The notes: generated by a model from the sequence alone, not told the origin. A stretch of 64,000 nucleotides of DNA from Candidatus Hydrogenedens sp. (GCA_049968235.1 JBMFRC010000004.1:96001-160000), one strand, 5' to 3'; counted from the stretch's first letter, positions 2,003 through 50,141 are shown. Program-made: numbers and translations.

Positions 2003-2695
2003 TTAAGGATAAAAATCCTGATATCCTAATCTCCAGAATTTATTAAATAAACAACAAAAAGACATTTTTTTCTTATTAAAATTATAGTAAAATTCAAAGG
2101 GAATGTTATACAAAACATCTGTAGAGAATTCTTTATTGTCTGAACTACCATAGATATTTATTCTTTCAACAGTCTCCTTTGGCCATAAATCAGCAAACCT
2201 CATACCACCTGAAATATAAATATTCTCATCCGATGTTTTAATAGAGTATAATTTCTTATCTTTTCTAAGCTGTAAATAATCTAATAAAGAAAGTGTTAAA
2301 TTAAATACTTCTTCTTCCCTATAGTTAAAAAATTTTTCTAATACAGAATATTTACCTATTGGAGGACCTTCATAGAATATTACATTAAGCGTTGCTGGAT
2401 CGGTTACCAAATAAAAAATTTTCCCATTATCTGTTTTATATTCTATATAATAATATTCTCTCACCCGTGAAAAATCCATAATATGCCAGGTATCAAAATC
2501 TCCTAAAAATCGTTTTTTAGGAACCGCATTTCTCTCACCTAAAATTTCTTGTAAAAATATAGTATTTGCTTTATATACCTCTTCAGGAACATCAGCAAGG
2601 GAATAAATCTCCAATGCTTCTCTGAATATAAATGCAGAACTCACCACTAATCCAAAAGCAAACAATATAATTATTATATATATTTTCTTTTCCAT
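2003..2695 (-). CDS. hypothetical secreted protein (signal peptide)
   Basis: ORF track; N-terminus MEKKIYIIIILFAFGLVVSSAF is signal-like; co-oriented and tightly spaced with its neighbours. Confidence 0.45.
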   Translation of the reverse strand: MEKKIYIIIILFAFGLVVSSAFIFREALEIYSLADVPEEVYKANTIFLQEILGERNAVPKKRFLGDFDTWHIMDFSRVREYYYIEYKTDNGKIFYLVTDPATLNVIFYEGPPIGKYSVLEKFFNYREEEVFNLTLSLLDYLQLRKDKKLYSIKTSDENIYISGGMRFADLWPKETVERINIYGSSDNKEFSTDVLYNIPFEFYYNFNKKKMSFCCLFNKFWRLGYQDFYP

Positions 2696-2717
2696 TTCTA
2701 TGTTTTTTTAATTAAAA

Positions 2718-3761: not shown

Positions 3762-3781
3762 CTTATCCGTAACAAGTGCAA

Positions 3782-4741: not shown

Positions 4742-4803
4742 AGGAACAAAACATAATAGATTGTTATAAATTACCTTTTTCGTTTTTCTTCCCTCCTATT
4801 TCT

Positions 4804-6318: not shown

Positions 6319-6596
6319 ACTCTATTCTCCTCTTTTAAGGTCTGTTCCTATTCAATTTTTCCTATACTACTTAATTAATTGTCTTTTTTAATTATAAAAA
6401 AAAAAAATTATTTGTCAAGACCTTTTTCTAAATTTTCTAAATTTTATAAATTAATTATTTTGAAAAAGAATGTTTTCTCCCATAAAGAACATTATTGAAC
6501 AAACCCTAAGTATGTATGACTTTTCTTTTATATAATATTTCTCCAAGGTAACATAAAAGTGAATAAAAACATAACTAACCCAACATATTCTAATCA

Positions 6597-7610
6597 TCAC
6601 TTTTTAATTTTGTATAGTCTTATTTCATGGGTTTTGTTGGGACAAACGACTTCTGCATAGACCCATATTTCATTATTCACCCAGATCCATTGTGAATAAC
6701 GAAATGTTGCAAACATATCTCCCGGTGTATTACTTACTAAAATTGGGGAATCCGGAGTCAAATCAATAATATTATGTAAATCAAAGGTAAATCCTAATCC
6801 TGTAGCAATATTGTAAACAGGGTCATACCATTTTGTATTTGAACCCTCATAAACAAATAGGAACCCAACACCGATAGGTAAGATAGAAGCAGGTCTCACA
6901 AAGAAATTATGCCAACCATTTAAGTTCATAATTGGCTCATTTACATCTCCTACAGGTTTCCATACCTCACCATCTTCACTTGTAAAATGAAAAATCCACT
7001 CATTTTCTCGAATATAACCAATGGTATAACAATGGTAAATACCACCATTTATGAATATAACAGGATCTTTATATCCACGGGGACGAATATCTCTTTCAAA
7101 TCTTTTTTCAGGAGGTAATATTACTCGTTTTGCAGTCTCGGGTTGAAAATTTTCGGGCGATTCAACATCATCAAATTTTAAGATAGACCATATACCATCA
7201 TTATTTGGAGCACATGCATATAGTTTAAACTTTTTTGTAATAGGGTCTATTATCATTGCAGGGCGTTCAAAACCGGGAACAGGAACCTGTTCTCTCAAAA
7301 TACTTTTAACTTTATCAAAATGCTCTCCATCTTTGCTTTTTAGAATTCGGATTTCATATCCACGAAATCCCCTCTGTCCTTCTGCTGTTCTCATCCTGCA
7401 TGCAAGCCAAAAAGCTCCTTCTTCATCCTGCACTACCGATGGAGCTCCTGCCCACCACTCGGGTTCATCTTTATCGGGGCGAAGTATTAGTTGATAGTTT
7501 GAAAATTTTTCCCTGATTTTTAAGAAATTCTTTTCAATTTCCGGGCATACAAATTCATCTGGAGATGCGGTCTTAATAAAACAGATAACACAAAACAGCA
7601 CTGCATTCAT
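6597..7610 (-). CDS. beta-propeller-fold glycoside hydrolase-like protein (GH43/GH130-superfamily-like), signal-like N-terminus
   Basis: WWAGAPSVVQDEEGAFWLACRMR-type motif and Trp/Gly-rich blade-like repeats; ~337 aa as for 5-bladed propeller GHs; family call is by resemblance only. Confidence 0.4.
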   Translation of the reverse strand: MNAVLFCVICFIKTASPDEFVCPEIEKNFLKIREKFSNYQLILRPDKDEPEWWAGAPSVVQDEEGAFWLACRMRTAEGQRGFRGYEIRILKSKDGEHFDKVKSILREQVPVPGFERPAMIIDPITKKFKLYACAPNNDGIWSILKFDDVESPENFQPETAKRVILPPEKRFERDIRPRGYKDPVIFINGGIYHCYTIGYIRENEWIFHFTSEDGEVWKPVGDVNEPIMNLNGWHNFFVRPASILPIGVGFLFVYEGSNTKWYDPVYNIATGLGFTFDLHNIIDLTPDSPILVSNTPGDMFATFRYSQWIWVNNEIWVYAEVVCPNKTHEIRLYKIKK

Positions 7611-36560: not shown

Positions 36561-37691
36561 TTATCCAATCGTTTTATGGAATCGGAATGAGGCAATAAAA
36601 AGGATGATAATCCCCATAGCTCCGAGAATTGCACCGTTGTGCCATAAATCCCAGAAACCTGCATTGCGAAGAATAATCCCGCGTAGAATTCGAATAAAAT
36701 AGGTAGCGGGGACAATCTGTCCAAACCAATAAATAATTTTGGGCATGGTTTCTTGTGGGAACATAAAACCGGAAAGAAGGAATGAAGGTAATAGTATCAG
36801 AAATGAGATTTGTAATGCTTGAATTTGATTCTGGGCAAAAGTAGAAACCAGTAATCCCATACCTAATGTAGTGAAAAGAAATATTCCGGCGAAGAAAGCC
36901 AGGAGAAGGACACTTCCGGCAATAGGAACTTGAAATAAAAATCGCATTAAAAACAGAACCGAGGCTGTTTCACATATTCCCACACCTAAAAAAGGAATTA
37001 ATTTACCTAACATCAGCCCAAAGCGAGAGACAGGTGTAACCACCAATTGTTCTAATGTTCTCTGTTCTTTTTCTTTTACAATAGCGAAAGATGTTAGGAG
37101 CATTATTACTACTTGAAGGATAACTCCGCATAAGCCGGGAATCATAAAATTTGCTGTTCTCATATCGGGATTGAATAATACGCGGGGTCGCATATCAATA
37201 GGGAACTGAGAAGGTAGGACTTTTGTTTTGTTTAATACTTTTATTGAAGCCCTTAATCCGATGGCATTACTTACATTTAAAGCCTGCATTGCCACTGTAG
37301 AATCGCTACCATCGATGAGGATTTGTATGCTAACATGTTCATTTTTCAACACGCGGTCTGTATAGTAAGGAGGAATATGGATACCGACACGAACATCTCC
37401 CCTACGCATAGATGTAGCCATTTCTTCTTCATTGTTGAAAATCTTAACAATGTCAAAATATCCTGAATTTACGAACTGGTCTGCTAAATTTCTACTCTCT
37501 ATCTTTTTATCTTGATTTAATATACCTGTCCGAATATTTTTTATATCTAAATTGACAGCAAAGCCAAAAATGATGAGTTCAATACTTGGAATAACTAACA
37601 TTAAGAAAAGACTTCGTGGGTCTCTGACAATGTGTCTTGTTTCTTTGTAAATAATTGCAAAAAGCCCTTGAAACATATCTTCACTTTCCAA
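36561..37691 (-). CDS. ABC-2 type transporter permease
   Basis: 376 aa; N-terminal TM, periplasmic domain, then a C-terminal bundle of 5 TM helices; overlaps the ATPase gene by 11 nt. Confidence 0.75.
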   Translation of the reverse strand: MESEDMFQGLFAIIYKETRHIVRDPRSLFLMLVIPSIELIIFGFAVNLDIKNIRTGILNQDKKIESRNLADQFVNSGYFDIVKIFNNEEEMATSMRRGDVRVGIHIPPYYTDRVLKNEHVSIQILIDGSDSTVAMQALNVSNAIGLRASIKVLNKTKVLPSQFPIDMRPRVLFNPDMRTANFMIPGLCGVILQVVIMLLTSFAIVKEKEQRTLEQLVVTPVSRFGLMLGKLIPFLGVGICETASVLFLMRFLFQVPIAGSVLLLAFFAGIFLFTTLGMGLLVSTFAQNQIQALQISFLILLPSFLLSGFMFPQETMPKIIYWFGQIVPATYFIRILRGIILRNAGFWDLWHNGAILGAMGIIILFIASFRFHKTIG

Positions 37692-38667
37692 AAGAACGAG
37701 TTAAAGTCACGAAAACATCTTCAAGTGTTGGCGGAACTACTCGTAAACTCTGAATATGAAATCCTTTTTTCTGAATAGATTGTTGGAGTTCATCTTCGCT
37801 TCCCTTTTGAATAAGAATATGAATAACATCCGAAAACATGGTGGCATCCCTGACAAAAGTCATTCTTAACAACTCTCGCATGGCTTCTGTAAGTCGGTCT
37901 ATTCTGAGTTCATATCGCACAAATCCTTCTGGTGTTACTTGTGGCATCTTTTTTAATTCTTCCGGGGAACCATAAGCAATAAGTTTTGAAAAGTAGATAT
38001 ATCCGAGGTGGGAACATCGTTCCGCTTCATCCATATAGTGAGTTGTAACAAAAAAAGTCGTTCCACGTGCGGAGAGGTCAAATAAGAGATTCCATAAGTC
38101 ACGACGGGCAACAGGGTCAATTCCTGCGGTAGGCTCATCTAAGAATAACAATTTCGGATTATGAACCAGTGAACAGGCAAGAGCAAGTCTTTGTTTCCAT
38201 CCTCCGGATAAAGAACCTGATAATTGGTTCAGGTAAGGTTTGATATCTACAATATTAATTACTTCATCAATTCGCTCTTTTCTTTGTTTTCGGGGGATAC
38301 CGTAAATTTTAGCATAAAAAGTAATATTTTCAAGGACGGTGAGGTCAGCATATAGACTGAATTGTTGGGACATATAGCCAATCGATTTTTTTATTTCTTC
38401 ACTTTCAGAAACTACATCATAACCTAAAACCCTTGCTTCACCGGAGGTAGGACGAAGAATACCACATAACATACGAATTAAGGTTGTCTTTCCGGAACCA
38501 TTAGGACCTAAAAAACCGAATATATCTCGTTTTCGAACTGTTAATGAAACACGGTCAACAGCAGTGTGTACGCCAAATTTTCGGGATAATTCATTTACCT
38601 CGATTACTGCAGGGTAAACCTGCTGTGAAATGTGGTTGTCTTCTACCTGTGACATATATAGGCTCAT
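37681..38667 (-). CDS. ABC transporter ATP-binding protein
   Basis: Walker A GPNGSGKTT, signature LSGGWKQRLALA, Walker B LLFLDEPTAGID. Confidence 0.85.
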   Translation of the reverse strand: MSLYMSQVEDNHISQQVYPAVIEVNELSRKFGVHTAVDRVSLTVRKRDIFGFLGPNGSGKTTLIRMLCGILRPTSGEARVLGYDVVSESEEIKKSIGYMSQQFSLYADLTVLENITFYAKIYGIPRKQRKERIDEVINIVDIKPYLNQLSGSLSGGWKQRLALACSLVHNPKLLFLDEPTAGIDPVARRDLWNLLFDLSARGTTFFVTTHYMDEAERCSHLGYIYFSKLIAYGSPEELKKMPQVTPEGFVRYELRIDRLTEAMRELLRMTFVRDATMFSDVIHILIQKGSEDELQQSIQKKGFHIQSLRVVPPTLEDVFVTLTRSFGK

Positions 38668-39800
38668 CGTGTTAATGGGACTTTCACAGTAGCAGTCATT
38701 CCTGCACGAAGTTTACCGTTATATGAGTTAAGGGACAATTTCACAGCAAACACTTGTTGTATTCTCTCTTCCTGTGTTTGTAAATTTCGAGGAGTAAATT
38801 CACCTTCGGAAGCAATATAGATAATTTTTCCTGAAAATGTTTCATCTCTATGAGCGTCTGTAACAAAGGTCAAATTTTGTCCTATGGAAATATAACCCAA
38901 CACATAGGCAGGGACATATATAACCATTTCCAAATCGTCCGGGTTCACAATACGGATACAGGGACCCGGGGGAACAATATCTCCTTTACGAACAGATACA
39001 GACTCTACAATACCATCGATTGGCGAGTTAACAGTGCACTCTTTCCTGACTGAATCAGCCCTTGATAATTCGGCGAGGGCTGATTCTAAAGCCGATTCTG
39101 CAGAACGGATATCTTCAATTCGTGGTCCTCTTTTTATTTCATCAAACATAGCAACAGTTCGTTCCCAATTTGCTTTTGCTGATTCTATTTCTTCTTCCCG
39201 GGCACCTTTTTGAAGTTGTTTATATCTTTCATCCGCTACGCGATATTCTGCTTTTGCTTTTTCAAAAAGTATTTTTGCTTGTTCCCATTCTTTTTTAGAA
39301 ACTGCTCCTTCGTTAAATAGTCGTTCTGCTCGTTCGTAATCGCGTTTGGCTATTTCAAAGGTAGATTTTGCGGATTCCAGTGTAGCTTTTGCAGATTGTT
39401 TATCTTCTTCTCTTGCTCCTGCAAGCAAAAGCCGATATTGTGCTTCTGCAGTTTTCATAGCATTTTCTGCCTGACGGAGTTCTTCCTCCGTAGCACCTCT
39501 TTTTAACTTTTCCACCAGGGATTCGGCACGTTTAACTCCAGCAAGGGCGGATTGATACATTGACTCCTGTTGGTTACAGTCAAACTGAATTAGAGTAGTA
39601 TCTTTTTTTACGAAATCCCCTTCTTTAACAAAAACATCAATAATACGACCTCCAATTGTCGAACCTGGCGTATGGACTTTGCATTCGATTTGTCCTGAAA
39701 CTAAAAAGGAAGTTTTTTCTTCTTTGGTGCATGAGCAAAATGTAATAGAACTAATTAAAAGTATTGTAGGAATTTTTTTGTAGAAAATCTTATATTTCAT
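38664..39800 (-). CDS. HlyD-family membrane fusion (periplasmic adaptor) lipoprotein
   Basis: Lipobox ITFCSC; long coiled-coil with repeated EEEL/ERLF heptads; C-terminal beta-barrel segment; 4-nt overlap with the ABC ATPase. Confidence 0.75.
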   Translation of the reverse strand: MKYKIFYKKIPTILLISSITFCSCTKEEKTSFLVSGQIECKVHTPGSTIGGRIIDVFVKEGDFVKKDTTLIQFDCNQQESMYQSALAGVKRAESLVEKLKRGATEEELRQAENAMKTAEAQYRLLLAGAREEDKQSAKATLESAKSTFEIAKRDYERAERLFNEGAVSKKEWEQAKILFEKAKAEYRVADERYKQLQKGAREEEIESAKANWERTVAMFDEIKRGPRIEDIRSAESALESALAELSRADSVRKECTVNSPIDGIVESVSVRKGDIVPPGPCIRIVNPDDLEMVIYVPAYVLGYISIGQNLTFVTDAHRDETFSGKIIYIASEGEFTPRNLQTQEERIQQVFAVKLSLNSYNGKLRAGMTATVKVPLTR

Positions 39801-39921: not shown

Positions 39922-41253
39922 TTATTTTTTAATTTCAACGAGCCCGAAAGTCATTGATGCTTCTGCAACGACTTGATTTTCTACAGAAGCAATTACTCTT
40001 GCTTTGAACAAATCATTTCGGTAATACAACATCTCTGCTTCTACAACAAGTTGGTCTCCGGGAACGACTAAGCGTCTTAGTGAAGCATTCTCTATCCCAA
40101 TGAAATATGCTTGATAAAGTGGGGGTTCTCCATTTTCACGGAATATAAGGACAGAAGAAACCTGTGCCATGGCTTCAAGAATTAAAACACTGGGCATTAC
40201 AGGAACATCAGGCCAGTGTCCTTGAAAGAATGGCTCGTTTACAGTTACATTTTTGATACCCACTACTTTTTTCATAGATGTAAATTCTATAATTCTATCC
40301 ACCAGGAGAAATGGGTAGCGATGCGGTAATATTCTTAATATTTTGTTTACATCTAAAACAGGGATTTGTCGGTGAGCAGTGGGTCTCGGGTCATGAACCG
40401 CATAAATGCCATATCCGTTTAAATATACTTTTTTAATTTGTTTTGTAAACATGACATTTTTTTCATGTCCGGACTTGACACCGATAATATGTCCAATTAG
40501 AGGTCGCCCTAAAAGATAGGTATCTCCAAGCAAATCAAGAATTTTATGGCGAACGAACTCATCCGGGAAACGAAGTCCATCATTTAGAATTTCTTCATCA
40601 CCAATAACGACTGCACTTTCAAGACTACCTCCCATAATCAATCCCTGTTCTTTTAACATTTTTACTTCTTTCAGAAAACAAAAAGTTCGGGCGGGGGCGA
40701 TTTGAGACATAAAGGTTTCTTCGTTTACGGGGAAACTTGCATACTGGGTTCCGATGGCTACATGGTCGTATGCAATAGTCATTGTTACTCGTAATTCATC
40801 GGAAGGGAGAATATTTAAGGTAACTTCATCCTGTCTATAATAAACAGGTCTATCCACAAGCAGTGCCCTTTTTGGCTCTTCTTGTTCGGTAATTCCTGCT
40901 CTTAAAAGGCAATTCATTACAGGGAGGGCACTACCATCTCCATTGGGTATTTCTTCATTGTCGAGTTCTATATATAAATTATCAATACCTAAACCTGCCA
41001 TTGCTGCTAAGCCATGTTCAACGGTGCGGACTTTAGCACTACCAATACCTATTGTCGTTCCTCGTGAGACATCAACAACATGGTCAATATTAGCAGGGAT
41101 AGCGGGTTTACCAGCCATATCTGTTCGTATAAAAATGATACCTGTATCGGGTGGAGCAGGTTTGAATGTTACTGTGGTCAAACTTCCACTATGTAATCCT
41201 ACTCCTGAAAAAGATACTTCTTTGCTAATGGTTCTTTGGTTTTTCATACGCAA
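39922..41253 (-). CDS. lpxC-fabZ: bifunctional UDP-3-O-acyl-N-acetylglucosamine deacetylase / 3-hydroxyacyl-ACP dehydratase (LpxC-FabZ fusion)
   Basis: N-terminal LpxC block (FVRHKILDLLGDTYLLG...KSGHEKN, matching E. coli VRHKMLDAIGDL...KSGH); C-terminal FabZ block (LPHRYPFLLVDRI...GHWPDVPVMPSVLILEAMAQ). Confidence 0.85.
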   Translation of the reverse strand: MRMKNQRTISKEVSFSGVGLHSGSLTTVTFKPAPPDTGIIFIRTDMAGKPAIPANIDHVVDVSRGTTIGIGSAKVRTVEHGLAAMAGLGIDNLYIELDNEEIPNGDGSALPVMNCLLRAGITEQEEPKRALLVDRPVYYRQDEVTLNILPSDELRVTMTIAYDHVAIGTQYASFPVNEETFMSQIAPARTFCFLKEVKMLKEQGLIMGGSLESAVVIGDEEILNDGLRFPDEFVRHKILDLLGDTYLLGRPLIGHIIGVKSGHEKNVMFTKQIKKVYLNGYGIYAVHDPRPTAHRQIPVLDVNKILRILPHRYPFLLVDRIIEFTSMKKVVGIKNVTVNEPFFQGHWPDVPVMPSVLILEAMAQVSSVLIFRENGEPPLYQAYFIGIENASLRRLVVPGDQLVVEAEMLYYRNDLFKARVIASVENQVVAEASMTFGLVEIKK

Positions 41254-42305
41254 TCGTTCTCTATTTTTTGAATTTTTATTTCAAGGTCTTTAACTCTTTT
41301 AAGTAGTTCTGGTAAATATTGTTGGGCAACTAATATCCGTTTGGCTCGGGAATGCTCTACAGCAGGAAATCCTGAAAGAATAGCGTCTTTTTCTACGGAT
41401 TTTACTACTCCCGACCATGCGCCGATAGTTGCATTATCTTCGATTGTTATATGTCCGTTAATACCGGCACCTGCACCAATACGAACGCCATTGCCTATAA
41501 CTGCGCTTCCGGCTATGCCCGTAGTTGCAGCAATAGCACAATTATCACCAATTTTAACATTATGTCCTATCTGAACTAAATTATCAATTTTAGTTCCGGA
41601 ACCTATTTTTGTTTCGCCAAAGGTTGCTCTATCAATACAGGAATTACTTCCAATTTCTACATTATCACCAATAATTACCCGTCCCATTTGAGGAACTTTA
41701 ATCCATGCATTACCATCGAACACAAAACCAAATCCGTCCGTGCCGATACAAACTCCAGCATGTATAATACATTGAGAACCTATGGTAGTATTTTCGCGAA
41801 TGGTTACATTAGGGAAAATACATGTGTTCTCGCCTATCTGGCAATTATCGCCGATATAGACATTGGGAAAGATTATGGTGTTTTTCCTAATTTGTGAGTT
41901 TTTTCCAATAAATACATGAGGGCCTATTGCAATTCCTTCTTCTAATTGCACATTTTCTTCAAGAATAGCAGTAGGATGAAGTCCTCTGGGAATAGAAGGT
42001 TGAGAAAATCCAATTTTTTGGAGTATTTGAATAAAAGCAATTTCCGGGTTTTTTACGGCAATGCACACGATTTTTTCAGGTAGGGGAACTGTGGGTTCTT
42101 CTGCGATAAGAACAGCGGAAGCACGTGTCTGGGAAAGGAAAGTTTCATATCTTTTATCACGAATAAATATTAAATCTCCTTCGCGTGCATTCTCTATACT
42201 ATTCAAACCTGTTATTAAAGTATCTTCCTCCCCCCTGATAATTTTGCCGTCTACCCATTGTGCTATTTGTATTGCTTTTATTTGCATTTGTTTTCGAGTA
42301 TTCAA
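41244..42305 (-). CDS. lpxD: UDP-3-O-(3-hydroxyacyl)glucosamine N-acyltransferase
   Basis: 353 aa; N-terminal LpxD domain followed by extensive hexapeptide repeats (IGDNCQIGENTCIFPNVTIRENTTIGSQCIIHAGVCIG...); conserved position between skp and fabZ. Confidence 0.8.
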   Translation of the reverse strand: MNTRKQMQIKAIQIAQWVDGKIIRGEEDTLITGLNSIENAREGDLIFIRDKRYETFLSQTRASAVLIAEEPTVPLPEKIVCIAVKNPEIAFIQILQKIGFSQPSIPRGLHPTAILEENVQLEEGIAIGPHVFIGKNSQIRKNTIIFPNVYIGDNCQIGENTCIFPNVTIRENTTIGSQCIIHAGVCIGTDGFGFVFDGNAWIKVPQMGRVIIGDNVEIGSNSCIDRATFGETKIGSGTKIDNLVQIGHNVKIGDNCAIAATTGIAGSAVIGNGVRIGAGAGINGHITIEDNATIGAWSGVVKSVEKDAILSGFPAVEHSRAKRILVAQQYLPELLKRVKDLEIKIQKIENDCV

Positions 42306-42337
42306 ATATGATTATAGTATTGGCAATTCTACCGCAG

Positions 42338-42931
42338 TTATTTTTTGGGTTTGGATGTATCCGTTGCGGAAGAATTAGAATTTAAATATGTTAAAACTTT
42401 AGAAGTAATATCCATAGTTGGACTATGAAATAGCAAGCTACTTTTTAGAGATTTACCCGCATTAAAAACAAGGTGATAATTATCAGAAGTTGCTATTATA
42501 TTTACTGCATTCTGAATATCGTCCAGACATTCACGAATAATTCTTTCTTCTTTACTATCAATTGTCTTTTGTCGTTTCTCAAGTTCAGCCCGATATGATG
42601 CTGCTTCTTGTTCTATCTTCATTTTCAAATCAAGTTTTTCTTCATCGCTCAGGGTTGCTTTACCGGATTCAAGTTTTTTACGGTCTTCTTCAATGCGGTT
42701 CATTAAACTATCTAGGTCTTTTTGCTGAGTGTCTACTTCTTTCTGGAGTTCTTCGTATTTTTGTTTTCTTTTATTATATTCCCTCATAATAAGTTCAACA
42801 TCGACAACAGCGATTCTGTAAGATGTTCCTGTACCTGTAGTTTTAGCAGGTTCTTGTGCTGTTACATACCTTAAAGGAATTAAAATACAACTTAAAGCGA
42901 ATAACGAAATGAAAAAATATCTCCCTTTCAC
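42338..42931 (-). CDS. skp: OmpH/Skp-like periplasmic chaperone
   Basis: 197 aa, signal peptide, highly charged coiled-coil (QKYEELQKEVDTQQKDLDSLMNRIEEDRKKLES); canonical position after bamA. Confidence 0.7.
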   Translation of the reverse strand: MKGRYFFISLFALSCILIPLRYVTAQEPAKTTGTGTSYRIAVVDVELIMREYNKRKQKYEELQKEVDTQQKDLDSLMNRIEEDRKKLESGKATLSDEEKLDLKMKIEQEAASYRAELEKRQKTIDSKEERIIRECLDDIQNAVNIIATSDNYHLVFNAGKSLKSSLLFHSPTMDITSKVLTYLNSNSSATDTSKPKK

Positions 42932-43055
42932 AACTTTTCCTTTCTTTTATAGGGTTAATTAACAATTCAGTATAATAAACGAAAGTATATCACATTTTTA
43001 TTTTAAATTTCATTATTTCATGATAGAGAAAATGATTTTAAACTATACTTATGAA

Positions 43056-45371
43056 TTAAAATTGTAAACCTGTGGTCAGATGTAACTTACCATTTCCCTG
43101 GTCTTCATCTGGGTTAAGCGGTATGCCGTAATCTATACGAATAGGTCCAAATTTTGGAATTTCGGCGCCCAATCCAAGTCCGGCACTATACTTTAGGTCG
43201 GATAAATCAAAGTCATTTTCATCCTTCCATACACCACCCATATCAACAAAGGAGTAAATACGGATCATATTTGTTAATTTATATTTTAATTCTAAATTAT
43301 TGACCAGACGGAGATTCCCTCCTTCAGCAATCCAGTCTCCAAACCAGCCATATTCACGAATCTTAGGACCGATATCACGGTAATCGTATCCACGGACTGT
43401 AGTAGTTCCACCTGCATAAAATCTGTAAATCAATGGGATATAATCGGAATCGCCATATTCAGTCATCCAGCCTTCACGGGTTCTTAACATTAAGACCCAT
43501 TTTTGATTTTTGTCTAATGCCTTAAACCATGATAGGTCTAATTGCAACTTAACAAAATTATTGTCGCCTCCGAGTCCTGCAAGCTCAGAACTCAAGATGG
43601 CATTGATACCCCGGGATGGGTCTCTGGGACGGTCCAAAGTATTTCTTTCAAGACTCAATATAGTGCTAACTGTGGTTGAATTTTCGGTTTGTCTACGAAT
43701 TTCTCTATTAATGAACCATGGCAAATCACTAACATCTACATCTTCTACACGGAATGATAAACGGGCGGTGTTATATAATGAAAGAGCTTTTCCAAATCGT
43801 ATTTGTCCACCTGCCTGATTTTCCCGATAATCCGCACCACCCCTTACCCAATAGGATTCGTTATAGAGGTCAACACCTAAAGATATAGGGTAACCTAAAA
43901 TTTCAGGGTCTGTAAAACTTACATTATAGCGGTCTCTTCTATCCCCAAGGTGAACGCGAGCTGAAAATTGCTGTCCACCACCAGAAAAATGGGGCCAGTT
44001 GGTAATGTCAAAGTTTCTCAAACGAAGTTGTGCAAATCCACCAACACCTTCATCTGTGCTATAGCCTGCCCCAAATAAAAATGAATTGGTTTTTCCTTCT
44101 TCAACATCGACAAGCAAATTGGAATATCTTGTGTCAATCTCATCATCTGTAAGTGTGATACGAACTTTATCAAAATAGTCTGTATTTTCAAGCCTTAACC
44201 GACTGGATTCTATAGAGGAGCCATCATACCTTTCACCGGGCTTTATTAACATTTGTCGGCGAATGACATCATCTTGAGTAACATCGTTACCGGTAATATC
44301 TATTTGTTTAATATATTTTAATTCGCCTTCTGATATATTATATACGATATTTGTTGTTTTATTTTGTTCATCTTTTGATACCTGTGGTGTAACTGTTGCA
44401 TCGACGTAGCCACTATCGCGATATTTGATTTCTAATTTTTGGGCATCTTTAGCAACCTGCCCTTTATTATGAATATCTTCAGGTTTTACTTTTATTTCTT
44501 TCTCGAATTCGTCATTGTCGTATACAGTATTATTTGCATACTGAATGGAATTAACTTTGTACTGTTCTCCTTCTTCTACAAATAATTTAATTTTTAATTT
44601 TTTACCTCCATCTGTGTAGAGGACATCTGTATGTGTTACCTTTGCATCTAAATATCCGTTATCTCCATATTTATTTATGACATTTTCCAAATCATTTTCG
44701 AATTTTGTTTCATCATATTTTCCACCTAAAAACCACCAAGCAGGTTTTGTCTTCATTGCCTTTTTAATTTGTCGGTCTGATAAAGCGATGTTTCCTTCGA
44801 TTTCAATTTCTTTAATACGTGCTTTTTTACCTTCATCAATGGAGTATATAATCCGAACAAGTCCGGGTTCTATTTTTTCCGTTATGACATCAACTTTCGT
44901 ATTTGCATAACCTTTGCCCTGATACATATTAATAATAGATTTTCTGTCTTCTTCACATAATTCTGGAATAAAGGAAGCACCTCTTTTCTGTTTTAAGGTA
45001 GGTTCTATGACACGTGGTTTTATCTTCTTGCAACCTATTATTTTTACATCTGCAATTCTTCGTTCTTCTTCAACAATGAATACAACCTTCACTCCATTTC
45101 CTTCTGGAGTAACTTCTGCATCGACTTTTACAAAATAACCCAGACCGTAAATTCTTTTTAAATCTCTTGCGATAGAACGAGGATTTAAGTTTTGTCCCGT
45201 TTTTGTTTCTACTTTACCCAAAACTACCTGTTCATTTATTTTTTCTAATCCTTTTACCTGAACAGCAGTTATTTCCTTTCCGGCGTATTCTTCTAATTGA
45301 GCCATGAGATTACTGCAAAACAGAAAAATAGCGAAAAAATAACCTACATACATGTATCTTGTGTTCAACAT
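43056..45371 (-). CDS. bamA: outer membrane protein assembly factor BamA
   Basis: 771 aa; signal peptide; POTRA-like repeats followed by C-terminal beta-barrel ending ...KLHLTTGLQF (aromatic C-terminal residue). Confidence 0.8.
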   Translation of the reverse strand: MLNTRYMYVGYFFAIFLFCSNLMAQLEEYAGKEITAVQVKGLEKINEQVVLGKVETKTGQNLNPRSIARDLKRIYGLGYFVKVDAEVTPEGNGVKVVFIVEEERRIADVKIIGCKKIKPRVIEPTLKQKRGASFIPELCEEDRKSIINMYQGKGYANTKVDVITEKIEPGLVRIIYSIDEGKKARIKEIEIEGNIALSDRQIKKAMKTKPAWWFLGGKYDETKFENDLENVINKYGDNGYLDAKVTHTDVLYTDGGKKLKIKLFVEEGEQYKVNSIQYANNTVYDNDEFEKEIKVKPEDIHNKGQVAKDAQKLEIKYRDSGYVDATVTPQVSKDEQNKTTNIVYNISEGELKYIKQIDITGNDVTQDDVIRRQMLIKPGERYDGSSIESSRLRLENTDYFDKVRITLTDDEIDTRYSNLLVDVEEGKTNSFLFGAGYSTDEGVGGFAQLRLRNFDITNWPHFSGGGQQFSARVHLGDRRDRYNVSFTDPEILGYPISLGVDLYNESYWVRGGADYRENQAGGQIRFGKALSLYNTARLSFRVEDVDVSDLPWFINREIRRQTENSTTVSTILSLERNTLDRPRDPSRGINAILSSELAGLGGDNNFVKLQLDLSWFKALDKNQKWVLMLRTREGWMTEYGDSDYIPLIYRFYAGGTTTVRGYDYRDIGPKIREYGWFGDWIAEGGNLRLVNNLELKYKLTNMIRIYSFVDMGGVWKDENDFDLSDLKYSAGLGLGAEIPKFGPIRIDYGIPLNPDEDQGNGKLHLTTGLQF

Positions 45372-45430
45372 TTAACAAATCCCTTTATTGGTTTTTTAAG
45401 TTATTTCAAAACTTTGCCTACAGTAAAGCC

Positions 45431-47932
45431 CTAATTTGTTATTAATTTTACTGTATTATTATCGTTTTTTTGTAACTGATTTTCAAATTCATTTTCTATC
45501 TGAGTAAATTCCAATTTTTTGTTATCCTCGGAAAATGTAATTAGTATAGTATTTCCTTCTTTAATATCACCAATAAGTAATTTTTCTGCAAGGGGGTCTT
45601 CGATATTTTGTTGAATAGCCCGTCTTAAGGGTCGAGCTCCATATTCTTCACTACTACCAATTTGCACAAGGAATTTTTTTGCTTCAGGTGTAATTTCTAA
45701 TTTTACCTGTTTCTCCGTTAATTTTTTAGCAACTTCGGCAATCTGTATATCTATAATTTTTTCTAATTCTTCCTGAGTAAGCCGATGAAACACTAAAATC
45801 TCATCCAATCTATTTAGAAATTCGGGATTAAAAGTTTTTCGTACTTCTTCCATTACGCGGTCGCGCATTTTTTCGTATTCTTCTTCAATGGTATCTTTTT
45901 GAAATCCTAACGAAGTGGATTTTCCGATTTTACGGGCTCCAATGTTGGAAGTTAATACTATAACTGTGTTTTTGAAATCTATTTTTCTTCCACTCCCATC
46001 TGTCATTTGTCCTTCTTCAAGGATTTGAAGTAATGTGTTAAATATATCTGGATGTGCCTTTTCTATTTCGTCGAACAGAACAACTGAATAAGGTCTTCTT
46101 CGCACCTGCTCTGTAAGTTGTCCTCCTTCATCATAACCAATATATCCTGGAGGTGCACCCATTAAACGGGATACAGTAAATTTTTCCATATATTCGGACA
46201 TATCCAGTGTAATTAATGCTCGCTCATCTCCGAATAAAAATTCTGCCAATTTTTTTGCAAGTAATGTTTTACCTACACCGGTAGGACCTAAGAAAAGAAA
46301 AGACCCTACAGGGCGATTACTATGGCGTATGCCGGCTCTTGACCTTTGTATGGCTCGGGTAATAGCATCGATAGCCATATCCTGTCCGACGATAGATTTA
46401 TGTAATTCATCACGCATACGAAGTAATCGTTCGGATTCTGTTTCTCCAATTTTGGTCAGGGGAACACCTGTCCATTTGGATACGACATAAGCAATATCTT
46501 CCGAAGTTACAATTGCTTGAGAAGAATCCCTTTGTGATTCCCATTCTTTTTTCTTTTCCTGATACTGGGACTGAAGTCGGCGTTCTTTGTCTCTCAATGA
46601 CGCTGCTTTTTCAAATTCCTGATGCTTTATTGCTATTTCTTTTTCTTGTGTTACTTTTTCTATTTCTATTTCTAACTCTTTTAATTCTTTAGGACGTGTA
46701 GTAATCTGCAATCGCACTCGACTTCCGGCTTCATCCAACACATCTATTGCTTTATCCGGTAAATAACGGTCTGTAATATATTGGTCGGAAAGTTTCACGG
46801 CAGAGATAATGGCATCATCTGTATATTTAACTTTATGATGGGCTTCATATTTATCCCGGAGTCCTTCGAGAATTTTTATTGTTCCTTCTGGAGAAGGCGC
46901 TTCAACAAAAATAGTTTGAAAGCGTCTGGCTAATGCTGCATCTTTTTCAATATATTTTCGATATTCATCCGCAGTAGTTGCACCAATGCATTGAAGTTCT
47001 CCTCGTGCGAGTGCGGGTTTTAACATATTTGCTGCGTCCACAGCCCCTTCTGCGGCACCTGCACCGACAATGGTATGTATTTCATCAATAAAAAGAATGA
47101 TATTATCTTCACGTTGAATTTCTTTCATTACACTCTTTAGTCGCTCTTCAAACTGGCCTCGATATTTTGTCCCTGCAATAACAGACCCTAAATCCAATGT
47201 CAATACTCTTTTATTAAGAAGTAAATCGGGGACATTTCCATTAACAATAGATTGAGCAAGTCCTTCCACAATTGCAGTTTTACCTACGCCGGCTTCTCCA
47301 ATTAAAACAGGATTATTTTTTGTTCTTCTGCTCAATATTTGTATAACCCTCTCTATTTCAGTTTCTCTGCCAATTACAGGGTCTAATTTCCCTTCTCTTG
47401 CTAAGAAAGTTAGGTCTCTGCCGAATGTGTCAAGTGCCGGTGTTGTAGATTTTCTCCGTTCGTGCATTTCACCTTTAGAACTGGGTTTTCCATGTTCCCC
47501 AAGTAGTTTCATGATTTCTGTTTGTGCTCGATTTAAATCGACACCAAACTCGGCTAACAATTTAGCGGCGACACTTTCTCCTTCTTTGATTAGCCCTAAA
47601 AGTATATGTTCTGTCCCGATATAGCTATGATTAAAGCGATGTGCTTCTTCTGCTGCCATTTCCAATACTTTTTTGGCACGGGGAGTATATGTTATTTCTT
47701 CGGAGGTAAGTAAGGCAGGTCCCTGCGGACTCCGGTGTTCTATTTCTTGTATTAATTGTTCTAAATCTATCCCCATACTCAGTAATGCTTTTGCTGCAAT
47801 TCCTTCAACTTCGAGACAAAGAGCAAAGAGGATATGTTCGGTTCGTACATATTCACTGCCTCTTTTCACGGCTTCAGTTCGAGCAACTGATATTACATGT
47901 CGGGCTCTCTCTGTAAAGCGTTCCCACAACAT
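45431..47932 (-). CDS. clpC: ATP-dependent Clp protease ATP-binding subunit ClpC (ClpA/B family with mid UVR motif)
   Basis: Two Clp_N repeats; NBD1 Walker A GEAGVGKT; internal UVR-like [16 protein letters not shown] between NBDs; NBD2 Walker A GPTGVGKT. Confidence 0.85.
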
Positions 47933-47969
47933 TTATTTTCTCCCTAAAAATGTATTCTTTTATGAATAA

Positions 47970-49112
47970 TCAATTGTTGAATATTTCTTTAAATTTATTA
48001 GCACGCATCAAACTCATTTTTACCGTATTATTCCCATTAGAAGTTAGATTTACAAGAATGTGCCCTCCTTGAAGTTCAAATAACAGGTGCAAAGGTAATA
48101 AGGGAATTGATGCTGATGTTAAATTTAAGGAAAACCCTAATTGAAGAGCAGACCATAATTCTATAGCTTCCGCAAACTCTAAAAATCGTGACCCTTTTGC
48201 AACTCCTTCTGCTCTACCCACCATATCTTCTAATGTTAGTTTACTGGAAGTAAGTAGTTTTTGTCGTGCATCCATTTCCGCTTTTGTTATTTCACTGGCC
48301 ATGTGAGATAAGGAGAAAACAATTTCTGCCTCTGAAAAACCTAATGTATATCTATTCCCAATAACGAACAAGCTACCTACTGTTTCAATTAAGCCTACTG
48401 TTACAGGGGATGATAAGGAACTATGAAGCCCCTGTTCGATTATATGTTTGGGTATTGCCAGAGGTCGTGCATCGGCGGGGGGACCTGTTTTTACACCTTT
48501 GAGATAAAAACCTAAAGATTTTAATTTTTCTTCCCAGAGTAAGATACTTCCTGTTCTTGCTAAACCGGGAAGGTGAAGTATGGTAAATAATTTTAACCCT
48601 GTTCCAATAAAGTTTAAATCTGAAGTTAAAAAACCTAATCTTGGGTCGGTCATATAATCTACAGAAATACTCATACGGTCATCTATCTGGTTCAGGAGTT
48701 CCCATACTTTCTCTACTTGAAGTCCGGCGAATACTGTGCGGTAAGCAATATGTTCTCCTGCATTTACCATTACTGAGAATCGCTGGTCTTTACTAATAAA
48801 TGCACCTCTATGTCCAATTCCGGAAAGTAAGTCGTAAGCCACAAGAAACCGTTCTGACAGGAACAGATTTTCTCGTGGTGAAGTCCCGGCAAAACTAATG
48901 TAATCATCTATTGAAATTCCATCTAATCGGAGAGTATTTTCTTTTACTAAATCCTCGAGCCGTTGTTTCTCTTCTTCGCTCATTCTCATAGGGAAAAAGA
49001 AGCCGGCAACATTACGGCACAGCGTCCCTATAGTTAAAATCGACACGGGTGCACCGGAGATTTCTTCTTTCCACCAAACAGGTTTATTTTCGACCCATGT
49101 TTTCATCATCAT
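47970..49112 (-). CDS. mcsB: protein arginine kinase McsB (ATP:guanido phosphotransferase family)
   Basis: Block GFLTSDLNFIGTGLKLFTILHLPGL matches the B. subtilis McsB block [25 protein letters not shown]; located between mcsA and clpC. Confidence 0.75.
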   Translation of the reverse strand: MMMKTWVENKPVWWKEEISGAPVSILTIGTLCRNVAGFFFPMRMSEEEKQRLEDLVKENTLRLDGISIDDYISFAGTSPRENLFLSERFLVAYDLLSGIGHRGAFISKDQRFSVMVNAGEHIAYRTVFAGLQVEKVWELLNQIDDRMSISVDYMTDPRLGFLTSDLNFIGTGLKLFTILHLPGLARTGSILLWEEKLKSLGFYLKGVKTGPPADARPLAIPKHIIEQGLHSSLSSPVTVGLIETVGSLFVIGNRYTLGFSEAEIVFSLSHMASEITKAEMDARQKLLTSSKLTLEDMVGRAEGVAKGSRFLEFAEAIELWSALQLGFSLNLTSASIPLLPLHLLFELQGGHILVNLTSNGNNTVKMSLMRANKFKEIFNN

Positions 49113-49115
49113 AAA

Positions 49116-49643
49116 TTAATTTTTACCTATTTTCCATGAAGATAGCATTTTTTCTAAATCTAAAATTTCATCACGTAATTTGGCTGCGGATTCATAGTCT
49201 TCTGATTTAATAGCCTGTCGTATCAATGCTTTTTTAGTATCCAGTAGAATTTGTGTCCGAACCCGTTCCTCATCATTGGCATAATTTAGTTTTTTGCCGA
49301 TATGGGAACTTCCTCCTTGAATAACCTCAAGAATAGATTCTATTTCAGGACCAAAAGTTTTGTAGCAAGTGAAACATCCTACTTTATTTTTTTCATGAAT
49401 ATAATTAATTTGCGTTCCACAAACAGAACATACAGTTTTTGTTTTTGATTTTTTTATAGTCACTTCTGTTTCCTCAAGTCGGTCTTTAACCTGTGGTTCC
49501 ACGAAATTAAAACTAAAGCCCTTCGGATTTTTCTGAATTTCGACAAGGCAATCGGGGCATAAATGTATTTCTGTTACATGCCCATCAATCACTTCCGCAT
49601 ATCGAACTGATGCAAGTTTTTTATGGCATTTTTGACAAAGCAT
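49116..49643 (-). CDS. mcsA: McsA-like protein (UvrB/UvrC-motif protein with two pairs of CxxC zinc knuckles)
   Basis: CQKC...CPDC and CSVC...CFTC pairs; C-terminal UVR motif YESAAKLRDEILDLEKM; 4-nt gap to mcsB. Confidence 0.7.
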   Translation of the reverse strand: MLCQKCHKKLASVRYAEVIDGHVTEIHLCPDCLVEIQKNPKGFSFNFVEPQVKDRLEETEVTIKKSKTKTVCSVCGTQINYIHEKNKVGCFTCYKTFGPEIESILEVIQGGSSHIGKKLNYANDEERVRTQILLDTKKALIRQAIKSEDYESAAKLRDEILDLEKMLSSWKIGKN

Positions 49644-49847
49644 TTTGTGTTCCTTTAACTTTTACCTATAATTATAACATTATAAGTATATTCCCTTCAC
49701 ATTTGTATGTTTAGAATTGAGATTTACAATTTGAGGAAGAGAATTGAAATTATCTACAATAAATCTAATTCTAATTTTTATTCTGTAATTGAAAGTGTTT
49801 ACCCGGTGAACGAGAAGAGAAAACAATACAAATTTACAATAAGGAAA

Positions 49848-50141
49848 GTGGCTATACATAATCAAAAACTAATAAAGATTGTTTGTATAGCACTTGCTTT
49901 GTATCTGTTGATTGCAGTTCTTCATGGATTGCTACCTGGCATCTGGGATAAATCTTTTGGTGGTAAAGAGGGAAAAGGACCTTTCCGAATTTTAATGTTT
50001 ACCCCTCTTCTTGTTTTATTGTTATTTTTTACCCTGATGAAGTATCCGTCAGAAAAAAATATCTTCCCAAAACCTAAAAACAGTTATATAAAGGTTATAC
50101 TCCAGCCTAATTCTCATCGGGGACCTCCTTCTTTTATGTAA
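49848..50141 (+). CDS. possible small 2-TM membrane protein (GTG start)
   Basis: AAGGAAAG RBS 0-1 nt before GTG at 49848; encodes ~97 aa with two hydrophobic helices (LIKIVCIALALYLLIAVLHGLL / ILMFTPLLVLLLFFTLM); the ORF track lists a longer in-frame ATG version starting at 49707. Confidence 0.3.
   Translation: MAIHNQKLIKIVCIALALYLLIAVLHGLLPGIWDKSFGGKEGKGPFRILMFTPLLVLLLFFTLMKYPSEKNIFPKPKNSYIKVILQPNSHRGPPSFM

What the first reader, a model, noticed from the sequence alone, without database searches (positions are those of the whole stretch)
39922..49643. mcsA-mcsB-clpC stress module in a diderm, contiguous and co-oriented with bamA-skp-lpxD-lpxC/fabZ, without ctsR
The McsA (zinc-knuckle/UVR) / McsB (arginine kinase) / ClpC trio is best known from Firmicutes, where CtsR represses it and McsB-made phospho-arginine marks proteins for ClpCP degradation. 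Here the same gene order is present but no ctsR and no CtsR box (GGTCAAA repeats) are visible upstream. The trio abuts bamA with only a 59-nt gap that has no recognisable terminator. This suggests co-transcription of cytoplasmic pArg-dependent proteolysis with outer-membrane biogenesis genes. The McsB motif aligned to B. subtilis [10 protein letters not shown] is TSDLNFIGTG (Cys replaced by Asp), so its activity or regulation may differ.
Basis: partly seen in the sequence, partly recalled or inferred. Interest (0 to 1): 0.6.

Follow-up and report, generated by a model that had tools for sequence, protein, structure and literature searches.

The report
ClpC operon with degenerate McsB, joined to bamA
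In this uncultured Hydrogenedens bacterium, a protein-unfolding machine (ClpC) and its two helper genes sit in one conserved gene block with the genes that build the outer membrane, and the helper that normally tags proteins with phosphate has lost every residue needed to do so.

Summary
On the minus strand, 49643..39922 encodes mcsA, an mcsB homologue, clpC, bamA, skp, lpxD and lpxC/fabZ. The clpC-bamA gap is 59 nt. No ctsR, CtsR box, CIRCE or terminator-like site was found. The window is a Candidatus Hydrogenedens MAG.

1. The block is not a local accident. The same seven-gene order occurs in 7 of 8 Hydrogenedentota lineages sampled, down to 30-36% McsB identity, and in a Krumholzibacteria-like contig. 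In the deeper lineages the bamA start codon overlaps the clpC stop, with a conserved Shine-Dalgarno inside clpC. Co-transcription is therefore very likely. One extended -10 promoter upstream of mcsA is conserved.

2. The McsB homologue keeps the McsB fold (AF2 pLDDT 93; TM 0.82-0.89 to 6TV6). It retains 0 of 8 key catalytic or ATP-binding residues, lacks the pArg receptor pair, and has a 36-aa insert in place of the lid loop. It is under purifying selection. It is best read as a pseudokinase partner of ClpC, so "pArg-dependent" proteolysis is doubtful.

Planctomycetota with similarly degenerate McsB place mlaEFD directly after clpC.

Verdict: a new variant of a known module. I found nothing describing it in the searchable literature.

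The parts
49671..49679 (-). Extended -10 promoter element TGTTATAAT, 28-36 nt upstream of the mcsA ATG. A GTGAAGG box further upstream is conserved within the genus.
   Evidence: TGnTATAAT / TGGTATACT occurs at the same distance from mcsA in the window, L001, L003, L006-L009, L011 and L013-L016. Coordinates verified.
49116..49643 (-). mcsA homologue (175 aa): Zn module 1 (C3, C6, C29, C32), Zn module 2 (C72, C75, C90, C93, 'GCFTCYKTF'), and a UVR/coiled coil.
   Evidence: NCBIfam McsA 89 bits (below the cutoff of 210); PF02151 UVR 30 bits.
47970..49112 (-). Degenerate mcsB homologue (380 aa): McsB fold with kinase-like and dimerisation domains, but without the catalytic residues.
48750..48764 (-). 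NAGEH in place of the catalytic NEEDH motif (E120 to A, E121 to G, D122 to E).
   Evidence: PMC11046695 names NEEDH together with C167 as the catalytic site.
48597..48626 (-). TSDLNFIGTG in place of [10 protein letters not shown] (catalytic Cys167 to Asp, Pro to Leu, Asn to Phe).
48384..48491 (-). 36-residue insert (residues 208-243) replacing the YGEGSE lid loop that carries E212.
   Evidence: (gap between the two aligned stretches), and (block-mean pLDDT 89-97 across the insert).
45431..47932 (-). clpC (833 aa): double Clp_N NTD, AAA1, short UVR M-domain, AAA2 and an LGF ClpP-docking loop.
   Evidence: The NTD matches the B. subtilis ClpC NTD (5HBN) at E = 5e-41.
45372..45430 (-). 59-nt clpC-bamA spacer. 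It has no terminator-like hairpin. It carries a TGTAGGC box conserved within the genus and an AAAGGGA Shine-Dalgarno.
43056..45371 (-). bamA (771 aa, 5 POTRA domains plus an Omp85 barrel).
   Evidence: TIGR03303 530 bits, cutoff 297.
42338..42931 (-). skp/ompH
   Evidence: PF03938 79 bits.
41244..42305 (-). lpxD
   Evidence: TIGR01853 355 bits.
39922..41253 (-). Bifunctional lpxC/fabZ, overlapping the lpxD end by 10 nt.
   Evidence: NF009667 498 bits.
36561..39800 (-). HlyD-type adaptor, ABC ATPase and ABC-2 permease. These are conserved downstream only within the genus and are not part of the phylum-wide block.
   Evidence: They are absent after lpxC/fabZ in L012-L018.

Best explanation
This is the Hydrogenedentota form of the McsA/McsB/ClpC module. 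It is fused into one conserved transcription unit with the outer-membrane biogenesis genes bamA-skp-lpxD-lpxC/fabZ.

Shown:
- The seven genes are real, co-oriented and tightly spaced.
- The order is kept across the phylum.
- In deep lineages bamA initiates at a TTG/GTG that overlaps the clpC stop codon, behind a conserved GGAAGG inside clpC.
- The only deeply conserved promoter element is an extended -10 box upstream of mcsA. It is of the housekeeping sigma-70 type. There is no CtsR or CIRCE operator.
- The McsB homologue has the McsB fold, has lost all catalytic and ATP-binding residues and the pArg receptor pocket, and is still under strong purifying selection.

Inferred:
- mcsA to at least bamA, and probably through lpxC/fabZ, is one mRNA.
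- The McsB homologue no longer phosphorylates arginine. It acts, bound to McsA through the conserved second zinc module, as a non-catalytic partner (adaptor or activity regulator) of ClpC(P).
- The operon therefore co-expresses cytoplasmic unfolding and proteolysis with outer-membrane assembly, rather than forming a CtsR-type heat-shock regulon.
For: - Gene content and spacing.
- Source organism: one search gives a 100% match to a Candidatus Hydrogenedens sp. protein. One search gives 92% identity to Ca. H. terephthalaticus.
- Synteny: the full block is present in L001 (60% McsB identity), L007/L009/L011, L012, L013, L014, L016 and L018 (30-36% identity). A Krumholzibacteria-like contig, L031, also has it.
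- Coupling: clpC stop and bamA start overlap (TTGA, GTGA, TTGTTAA) in L012, L013, L016 and L018. L014 also overlaps if the upstream TTG is used, which yields a proper signal peptide. GGAAGG lies 8-9 nt upstream.
- Promoter: conserved extended -10. No terminator-like site in any gap.
- McsB degeneracy: 69 canonical sequences are (near-)invariant at R29, R31, E120, E121, R125, Q127, C167, P168, N170, R176, R207, G211 and E212. The window protein has I, T, A, G, A, R, D, L, F, K, K, V and G/insert at these positions. No clade-specific replacement residue is conserved. It scores 0 of 8 key residues. The pArg receptor R337/D338 is M/S (PMC8370763). C167 and NEEDH are the catalytic site according to PMC11046695.
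- Fold: AF2 pLDDT 93.1, pTM 0.93. Foldseek top hits are McsB 6FH1/6TV6, TM 0.79-0.89.
- Selection: dN/dS 0.04-0.06 for mcsB between genus members.
- ClpC is intact, with a ClpP-docking LGF loop.
- Controls: loci with canonical McsB motifs have the Bacillus-type clpC-radA(-disA) continuation instead.
Against: - No transcript data exist. In the window's own genus the clpC-bamA gap is 55-69 nt. The best promoter-like match of the region (TTGAAA-17-GATAAT, 45486..45458) lies in the clpC 3' end, so bamA may also have its own promoter. Promoter-like matches overall are at chance frequency.
- Loss of kinase activity is predicted from sequence only. Asp could mimic the Cys thiolate, and two Arg are replaced conservatively by Lys. 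Single mutants of the equivalent arginine-kinase residues keep some residual activity (own knowledge; PDB 1P50, 1P52 and 1SD0 are such mutants).
- The ClpC N-domain keeps T7, E32, K85 and E106 of the two pArg pockets in nearly all lineages. That would fit continued pArg recognition. These residues also anchor the ClpC resting state (PMC12583610), so the conservation is not decisive.
- A second, canonical McsB elsewhere in the genome was not excluded.
- One Hydrogenedentota-type lineage (L017) has mcsA-mcsB without clpC or bamA. L006 breaks inside clpC, probably an assembly chimera.
- dS is saturated (above 1), so the dN/dS values are approximate.
Confidence: 0.6

Rival explanations
1. The McsB homologue is still an active protein arginine kinase with a rewired active site (Asp for Cys, shifted Glu and Arg, Lys for Arg). 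The module would then work as in Bacillus: pArg tagging followed by ClpCP degradation, but without CtsR.
For: The McsB fold and dimerisation domain are kept. McsA is kept with an intact second Zn module. Within the genus, D165, E120, K174 and an Arg two positions after the lost R125 are invariant. The ClpC pArg-pocket residues are kept. Purifying selection is strong.
Against: None of the 8 key residues is retained. Three of the five phosphate-binding Arg are replaced by I, T and A. Both catalytic Glu are lost, and the lid loop is replaced by an insert. Across the wider clade these positions are variable; position 167, for example, is S, D, A, R, E or Q. No alternative catalytic set is conserved. 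The pArg receptor pocket is lost. The protein falls far below the NCBIfam equivalog cutoffs.
Confidence: 0.22
2. The adjacency is conserved synteny without functional meaning. clpC and bamA would be separate or only loosely linked transcription units that happen to be neighbours in this phylum, and ClpC would have no specific role in envelope biogenesis.
For: A promoter-like site lies in the clpC 3' end of the window. The genus has a 55-69 nt gap with its own Shine-Dalgarno. The bamA-skp and skp-lpxD gaps reach 200-400 nt in some lineages. L017 lacks the linkage. Partly degenerate McsB loci L033 and L034 have malQ after clpC.
Against: Stop/start overlap with a conserved internal Shine-Dalgarno in at least 4 deep lineages. 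The order is retained at 30% McsB identity and in a second phylum-level lineage. A parallel tight junction, clpC-mlaE, occurs in Planctomycetota.
Confidence: 0.25
3. The trio was recently acquired by horizontal transfer from a Firmicute and inserted upstream of bamA.
For: The ClpC N-domain is very similar to that of B. subtilis ClpC. The gene order mcsA-mcsB-clpC is the Bacillus order.
Against: No compositional anomaly. The block is shared by lineages as divergent as 30% McsB, 50% BamA and 70% ClpC identity, so the junction is old. The McsB homologues form a distant, degenerate group separate from the canonical sequences in the NJ tree. Canonical loci continue with radA/disA, which is absent here.
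Confidence: 0.04

Closest known systems
Bacillus subtilis class III heat-shock operon ctsR-mcsA-mcsB-clpC(-radA-disA)
   Same: The order mcsA-mcsB-clpC is the same. McsA has two Zn modules and a coiled coil. McsB has the two-domain fold. ClpC has a double Clp_N NTD, a UVR M-domain and a ClpP loop.
   Different: No ctsR gene or CtsR box. The promoter is a plain extended -10. The McsB homologue lacks C167, NEEDH, all five phosphate-binding Arg, E212 and the R337/D338 pArg pocket, and carries a 36-aa insert. Downstream genes are bamA-skp-lpxD-lpxC/fabZ instead of radA-disA.
Chlamydia trachomatis McsAB (CT675/676) plus ClpC
   Same: A diderm with McsA, McsB and ClpC and without CtsR. Its ClpC degrades pArg-casein in vitro (PMC10128030).
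   Different: In Chlamydia, mcsAB is separated from clpC on the chromosome and is not linked to bamA. Here the three genes are contiguous and joined to the OM cluster. I did not examine the catalytic status of chlamydial McsB.
Proteobacterial envelope cluster rseP-bamA-skp-lpxD-fabZ-lpxA-lpxB (E. coli; own knowledge)
   Same: The core bamA-skp-lpxD-fabZ is the same, and it is preceded by a proteolysis-related gene.
   Different: The preceding gene here is the cytoplasmic AAA+ unfoldase clpC with its McsA/McsB partners, not the membrane site-2 protease rseP. lpxC is fused to fabZ. lpxA and lpxB do not follow.
Planctomycetota mcsA - degenerate mcsB - clpC - mlaE-mlaF-mlaD loci (L019, L020)
   Same: The McsB is degenerate (no Cys, no NEEDH). 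mcsA lies upstream. clpC is joined by a 3-nt gap or a 4-nt overlap to an outer-membrane biogenesis module.
   Different: The linked module is the Mla lipid transporter instead of BamA/Skp/LpxD/LpxC-FabZ. These McsB proteins lack the long insert.
Phosphagen (arginine/creatine) kinases, PF00217
   Same: The catalytic-domain fold is shared (Foldseek E about 1e-13, TM about 0.53), and the Pfam match is above threshold.
   Different: There is no N-terminal phosphagen-kinase domain. The active-site signature C-P-x-N-[ILV]-G-T (PROSITE PS00112, own knowledge) reads D-L-N-F-I-G-T here, so it is not met.

Membership tests
McsB protein-arginine kinase | Two-domain McsB fold (phosphotransferase domain plus dimerisation domain) | tested here: met
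   AF2 pLDDT 93.1. Best PDB matches are 6FH1 and 6TV6 over the full length, TM 0.79-0.89. PF00217 scores 106 bits against a cutoff of 22.4. PF27454 McsB_C is precomputed for the identical protein.
McsB protein-arginine kinase | Scores above the NCBIfam equivalog cutoffs (NF053707, NF002194) | tested here: not met
   149 bits against 500, and 171 bits against 385. NCBI names the identical protein 'hypothetical protein'.
McsB protein-arginine kinase | Catalytic cysteine (B. subtilis C167) in TxCPTNxGTG | tested here: not met
   Asp165 in TSDLNFIGTG. Cys is present in 69 of 69 canonical sequences.
McsB protein-arginine kinase | NEEDH motif (E120, E121) | tested here: not met
   NAGEH.
McsB protein-arginine kinase | Phosphate-binding arginines R29, R31, R125, R176, R207 | tested here: not met
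   I, T, A, K and K in the window protein. These positions are invariant or 67 of 69 in canonical sequences.
McsB protein-arginine kinase | Lid loop YGEGSE with E212 | tested here: not met
   Replaced by a 36-residue insert, residues 208-243.
McsB protein-arginine kinase | pArg receptor pocket in the dimerisation domain (R337/D338) | tested here: not met
   M/S at the aligned positions. The role of the pocket is taken from PMC8370763.
McsB protein-arginine kinase | Arginine kinase activity | not testable with these tools
   Requires biochemistry.
McsB protein-arginine kinase | Encoded between mcsA and clpC | tested here: met
McsA (kinase activator) | Two CxxC...CxxC zinc modules followed by a UVR/coiled-coil domain | tested here: met
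   C3/C6/C29/C32 and C72/C75/C90/C93. 'GCFTCYKTF' matches B. subtilis 'GCSECYKTF' (Bsu sequence from own knowledge). UVR scores 30 bits. The NCBIfam equivalog cutoff is not reached (89 against 210).
ClpC (class I Hsp100 unfoldase that partners ClpP) | Double Clp_N NTD, AAA1, short UVR M-domain, AAA2 and a ClpP-docking (I/L)GF loop | tested here: met
   Pfam architecture. NTD E = 5e-41 to the B. subtilis ClpC NTD 5HBN. 'KSTSLGFQ' loop. T7, E32, K85 and E106 equivalents are present.
CtsR regulon (class III heat shock) | ctsR gene and a CtsR operator (GGTCAAA repeat) upstream | tested here: not met
   No CtsR family hit in any ORF of 100 aa or more. Operator matches are at chance level and none is near the operon.
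bamA-skp-lpxD-fabZ envelope cluster | BamA (5 POTRA plus Omp85), Skp/OmpH, LpxD and FabZ in this order and co-oriented | tested here: met
   All score above the curated cutoffs.

The most novel reading that the evidence does not exclude
A catalytically dead McsA/McsB pair has been repurposed as a ClpC adaptor or sensor dedicated to outer-membrane biogenesis. It might tune LpxC/FabZ levels, as FtsH and Lon do for LpxC elsewhere, or clear unexported OMP or lipoprotein precursors. That dedication would explain why clpC became translationally coupled to bamA in Hydrogenedentota and Krumholzibacteria-like bacteria, and to mlaEFD in Planctomycetota. It would amount to a cytoplasmic proteolytic checkpoint for outer-membrane assembly shared by several little-studied diderm phyla.
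Probability: 0.15. Interest if true: 0.8.

Novelty: new variant of a known kind. Interest (0 to 1): 0.6.

Why it matters
McsB is the founding protein-arginine kinase. Its homologues in Gram-negative bacteria are described as never having been tested for activity (PMC11046695).

The data here point to a whole clade, spanning Hydrogenedentota, Krumholzibacteria-like bacteria and Planctomycetota, in which the fold, the McsA partner and the ClpC linkage are kept under selection while the entire catalytic apparatus is lost. That would make it a pseudokinase branch of the family. It is a concrete, purifiable test case for kinase-independent functions of McsB, such as acting as a ClpC adaptor or regulating ClpC activity.

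In the same clade, clpC is joined to outer-membrane assembly genes, often by overlapping stop and start codons. This gives a testable lead for how diderms outside the Proteobacteria coordinate cytoplasmic proteolysis with envelope biogenesis.

It also warns against annotating these genes as "protein arginine kinase", and against inferring pArg signalling from gene order alone.

Tried and rejected
- CtsR-box and CIRCE searches found nothing above chance. Rfam found no RNA family in the window.
- The consensus promoter/terminator scan is uninformative in this AT-rich DNA: 49 promoter-like sites against 47.5 expected, and 8 terminator-like sites against 10.2 expected.
The GTDB scan with the genus alignment returned only 6 close loci.
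- The Suskiewicz 2019 and Trentini 2016 papers are not held. Catalytic-residue roles therefore rest on PMC11046695, PMC12467219, PMC8370763 and PMC12583610, plus textbook knowledge of phosphagen kinases.
- The afdb50 fold library was unavailable.
- ClpC pArg-pocket conservation was examined as a test for pArg use. It was rejected as uninformative, because those residues also stabilise the ClpC resting state.
- Horizontal transfer from Firmicutes was considered and rejected.
- A decaying-pseudogene reading of mcsB was rejected on dN/dS of about 0.05 and the high-confidence fold.
- The small predicted hairpins in the 59-nt spacer (-12.6 kcal/mol over 105 nt, with no U-tract) were not taken as a terminator.

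Full report
**1. What is in the window**

The window comes from a Candidatus Hydrogenedens MAG. Its McsB-like protein is 100% identical to an NCBI protein from "Candidatus Hydrogenedens sp." and 92% identical to that of Ca. H. terephthalaticus.

Seven co-oriented genes lie on the minus strand:

- mcsA-like, 49643..49116
- mcsB-like, 49112..47970
- clpC, 47932..45431
- bamA, 45371..43056
- skp, 42931..42338
- lpxD, 42305..41244
- bifunctional lpxC/fabZ, 41253..39922

Spacing along the block is 3, 37, 59, 124 and 32 nt, followed by a 10-nt overlap.

No ORF of 100 aa or more in the whole 64 kb matches a CtsR, HrcA, LMW-PTP (YwlE) or ClpP family. CtsR-box matches are at chance level and lie elsewhere. 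CIRCE is absent. No terminator-like site falls in any gap of the block.

**2. The block is a phylum-level feature**

I fetched the surroundings of McsB relatives at decreasing identity. The full order mcsA-mcsB-clpC-bamA-skp-lpxD-lpxC/fabZ is present in:

- L001 (60% McsB identity)
- L007, L009 and L011 (78-87%)
- L012 (a 5.1-Mb contig), L013 (a "Candidatus Hydrogenedentes bacterium"), L014, L016 and L018, at 30-36% McsB, about 50% BamA and about 70% ClpC identity

Every named member of these protein clusters is Hydrogenedentota.

There are two exceptions. L017 has mcsA-mcsB only. L006 breaks inside clpC at residue ~655 into unrelated sequence, which is probably a chimeric join in a composite assembly.

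A GC-rich contig, L031, carries the same block. Its McsB-like protein is 50% identical to a Candidatus Krumholzibacteria protein, and its BamA is only 27% identical to the window's.

**3. The clpC-bamA junction**

In L012, L013, L016 and L018 the called bamA start (TTG or GTG) overlaps the clpC stop codon (TTGTTAA, TTGA, GTGA). A signal peptide follows immediately, and a conserved GGAAGG lies 8-9 nt upstream inside clpC. In L014 the same TTGA start gives a proper signal peptide. This is the signature of translational coupling.

Across lineages, clpC-bamA is as tight as mcsA-mcsB and lpxD-lpxC/fabZ. It is tighter than mcsB-clpC, where the gap reaches 304 nt.

In the AT-rich genus Hydrogenedens the junction has opened to 55-69 nt. 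The spacer there carries a conserved TGTAGGC box just after the stop codon and its own AAAGGGA Shine-Dalgarno. The best promoter-like match of the region (45486..45458) lies within the clpC 3' end. An additional internal promoter in this genus therefore cannot be excluded.

The one promoter element conserved at all depths is an extended -10 box (TGnTATAAT / TGGTATACT), 28-36 nt upstream of mcsA. In the window it is at 49679..49671. It looks like a housekeeping sigma-70 promoter, not a heat-shock operator.

**4. The McsB homologue**

PMC11046695 defines the McsB catalytic site as the catalytic Cys167 plus the NEEDH motif, covered by two active-site loops. PMC12467219 calls the S. aureus equivalent "catalytically essential" and describes a lid loop. 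PMC8370763 identifies R337/D338 as the pArg receptor site.

I aligned 163 homologues from an exhaustive HMMER search with B. subtilis McsB.

The 69 canonical sequences are invariant or nearly so at R29, R31, E120, E121, R125, Q127, C167, P168, N170, R176, R207, G211 and E212. The window protein has I, T, A, G, A, R, D, L, F, K, K and V at the first twelve. A 36-residue insert replaces the lid loop that carries E212. R337/D338 are M/S.

Across the 85 degenerate sequences these positions are variable. Residue 167, for example, is S, D, A, R, E or Q. No clade-specific conserved residue replaces any of them. What stays conserved is the scaffold shared with canonical McsB. That pattern is loss without replacement.

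The protein is not decaying:

- The AF2 model is very confident (pLDDT 93.1, pTM 0.93), including the insert.
- The best structural matches are full-length McsB (6TV6, 6FH1; TM 0.79-0.89).
- dN/dS within the genus is about 0.04-0.06, comparable to bamA (dS is saturated).

McsA keeps both zinc modules, including the McsB-binding Z2 motif GCxxCYKTF, and the UVR coiled coil. ClpC is a standard ClpC with a ClpP-docking LGF loop. Its N-domain is almost superimposable in sequence on that of B. subtilis.

The pArg-pocket residues T7, E32, K85 and E106 are kept. They also anchor the ClpC resting state and are conserved in organisms without McsB (PMC12583610). Their conservation therefore does not show that pArg is used.

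My reading is that this is a pseudokinase member of the McsB family that works with McsA as a non-catalytic partner of ClpC. I put the probability that it lacks arginine kinase activity at about 0.7. The adaptor role is inference by analogy with the adaptor function of Bacillus McsB.

**5. Wider pattern**

In an NJ tree the degenerate sequences fall together, apart from the canonical group (long-branch attraction is not excluded). The degenerate group includes the Hydrogenedentota, Krumholzibacteria-like and Planctomycetota sequences.

In two Planctomycetota MAGs (L019, L020) the order is mcsA, degenerate mcsB, clpC, then mlaE-mlaF-mlaD. The clpC-mlaE junction is a 3-nt gap in one and a 4-nt overlap in the other.

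By contrast, four loci with fully canonical motifs (L022, L024, L027, L029) continue with radA, and with disA in L022, as in B. subtilis. L027 has a ClpP-like SDH protease gene before radA. Partly degenerate L033 and L034 continue with malQ.

Linkage of clpC to an outer-membrane module thus recurs with degenerate McsB in at least two independent configurations (bamA and mla). It is not universal, and the sample is small.

**6. Comparison with what is known, and novelty**

McsAB/ClpC in diderms is already known:

- Chlamydia has McsAB and ClpC (PMC10128030).
- Homologues occur in Gram-negative bacteria, with activity "never identified" (PMC11046695).
- McsB is annotated in Omnitrophota, Elusimicrobiota, WOR-3 and Lentisphaerota.

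Absence of CtsR outside Firmicutes is expected.

Two features are not described in the literature I could search. The first is a catalytic-residue-free McsB clade. The second is the conserved, often translationally coupled, junction of clpC with bamA-skp-lpxD-lpxC/fabZ.

I class this as a new variant of a known kind, with interest 0.6. It is solid comparative genomics with a clear biochemical test. It concerns uncultured phyla, and there is no direct functional evidence.

**7. Limits**

- There are no transcript or biochemical data.
- Only 64 kb of the genome is visible, so a second canonical McsB, YwlE or ClpP elsewhere cannot be excluded.
- Taxon assignment of the related loci rests on the few named cluster members.
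- The mapping of arginine-kinase residue roles onto McsB comes partly from my own knowledge.

Noticed in passing
L019:7501-14226 and L020:7495-14351: Two Planctomycetota MAGs carry mcsA, a degenerate mcsB (no Cys, no NEEDH) and clpC, followed directly by mlaE-mlaF-mlaD (3-nt gap in L019, 4-nt overlap in L020). This is a second diderm phylum that joins this trio to an outer-membrane module, here the Mla lipid transporter.
   Followed up: partly
L031:1506-11534: A GC-rich metagenome contig has an ABC ATPase, a short mcsA (105 aa), a degenerate mcsB (HARDH; Cys to Asp; GTG to GPG), clpC, bamA, skp, lpxD and lpxC/fabZ. Its nearest named relative is Candidatus Krumholzibacteria (50% identity). The seven-gene block therefore exists outside Hydrogenedentota.
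   Followed up: partly
window 214-7610 (minus strand): Seven consecutive ORFs (316, 269, 230, 347, 319, 504 and 337 aa) have no Pfam match at E <= 1e-8. They sit in the lowest-GC part of the window (0.27-0.37), which also has strongly negative GC skew.
   Followed up: no
window 45408-45430 and the equivalent positions in L007, L009, L011 and L001: A short box, TGTAGGC, immediately downstream of the clpC stop codon is conserved across the genus even though the rest of the spacer varies. It is not part of a terminator-like hairpin. Its function is unknown; it could be a processing or regulatory site.
   Followed up: partly
L006:13100-13400: In the Ca. Hydrogenedens terephthalaticus composite assembly, clpC stops matching at residue ~655 and runs into unrelated coding sequence. 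The hlyD/ABC genes lie inverted about 6 kb away. This is probably a chimeric assembly join rather than a real rearrangement.
   Followed up: partly
L022, L024, L027, L029 (downstream of clpC): Metagenome loci with fully canonical McsB motifs continue with radA (and disA in L022), as in B. subtilis. L027 has a ClpP-like SDH-type serine protease gene between clpC and radA.
   Followed up: partly
L033:788-5920 and L034:7953-13015: Partly degenerate McsB (keeps four Arg; lacks Cys, E121 and the lid Glu), with no mcsA detected upstream by tblastn, followed by clpC and a GH77 4-alpha-glucanotransferase. This is a counter-example to the outer-membrane linkage.
   Followed up: no
window 49707-50141 (plus strand): A 144-aa ORF is transcribed divergently from mcsA and has no Pfam match. 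A shorter unannotated ORF (98 aa) occupies the same position in L001. It shares the 63-nt intergenic region that holds the mcsA promoter.
   Followed up: no
L016:6301-6780 (ClpC N-domain): In this Hydrogenedentota lineage the second pArg-pocket motif GTEH reads DTVH (E106 equivalent to Val). All other lineages keep it.
   Followed up: no
window 23824-26577 (minus strand): A 917-aa protein with an SLT lytic transglycosylase domain and seven LysM repeats. Neighbouring genes include a hybrid histidine kinase/receiver protein and an AAA_22 + PG_binding_1 protein.
   Followed up: no
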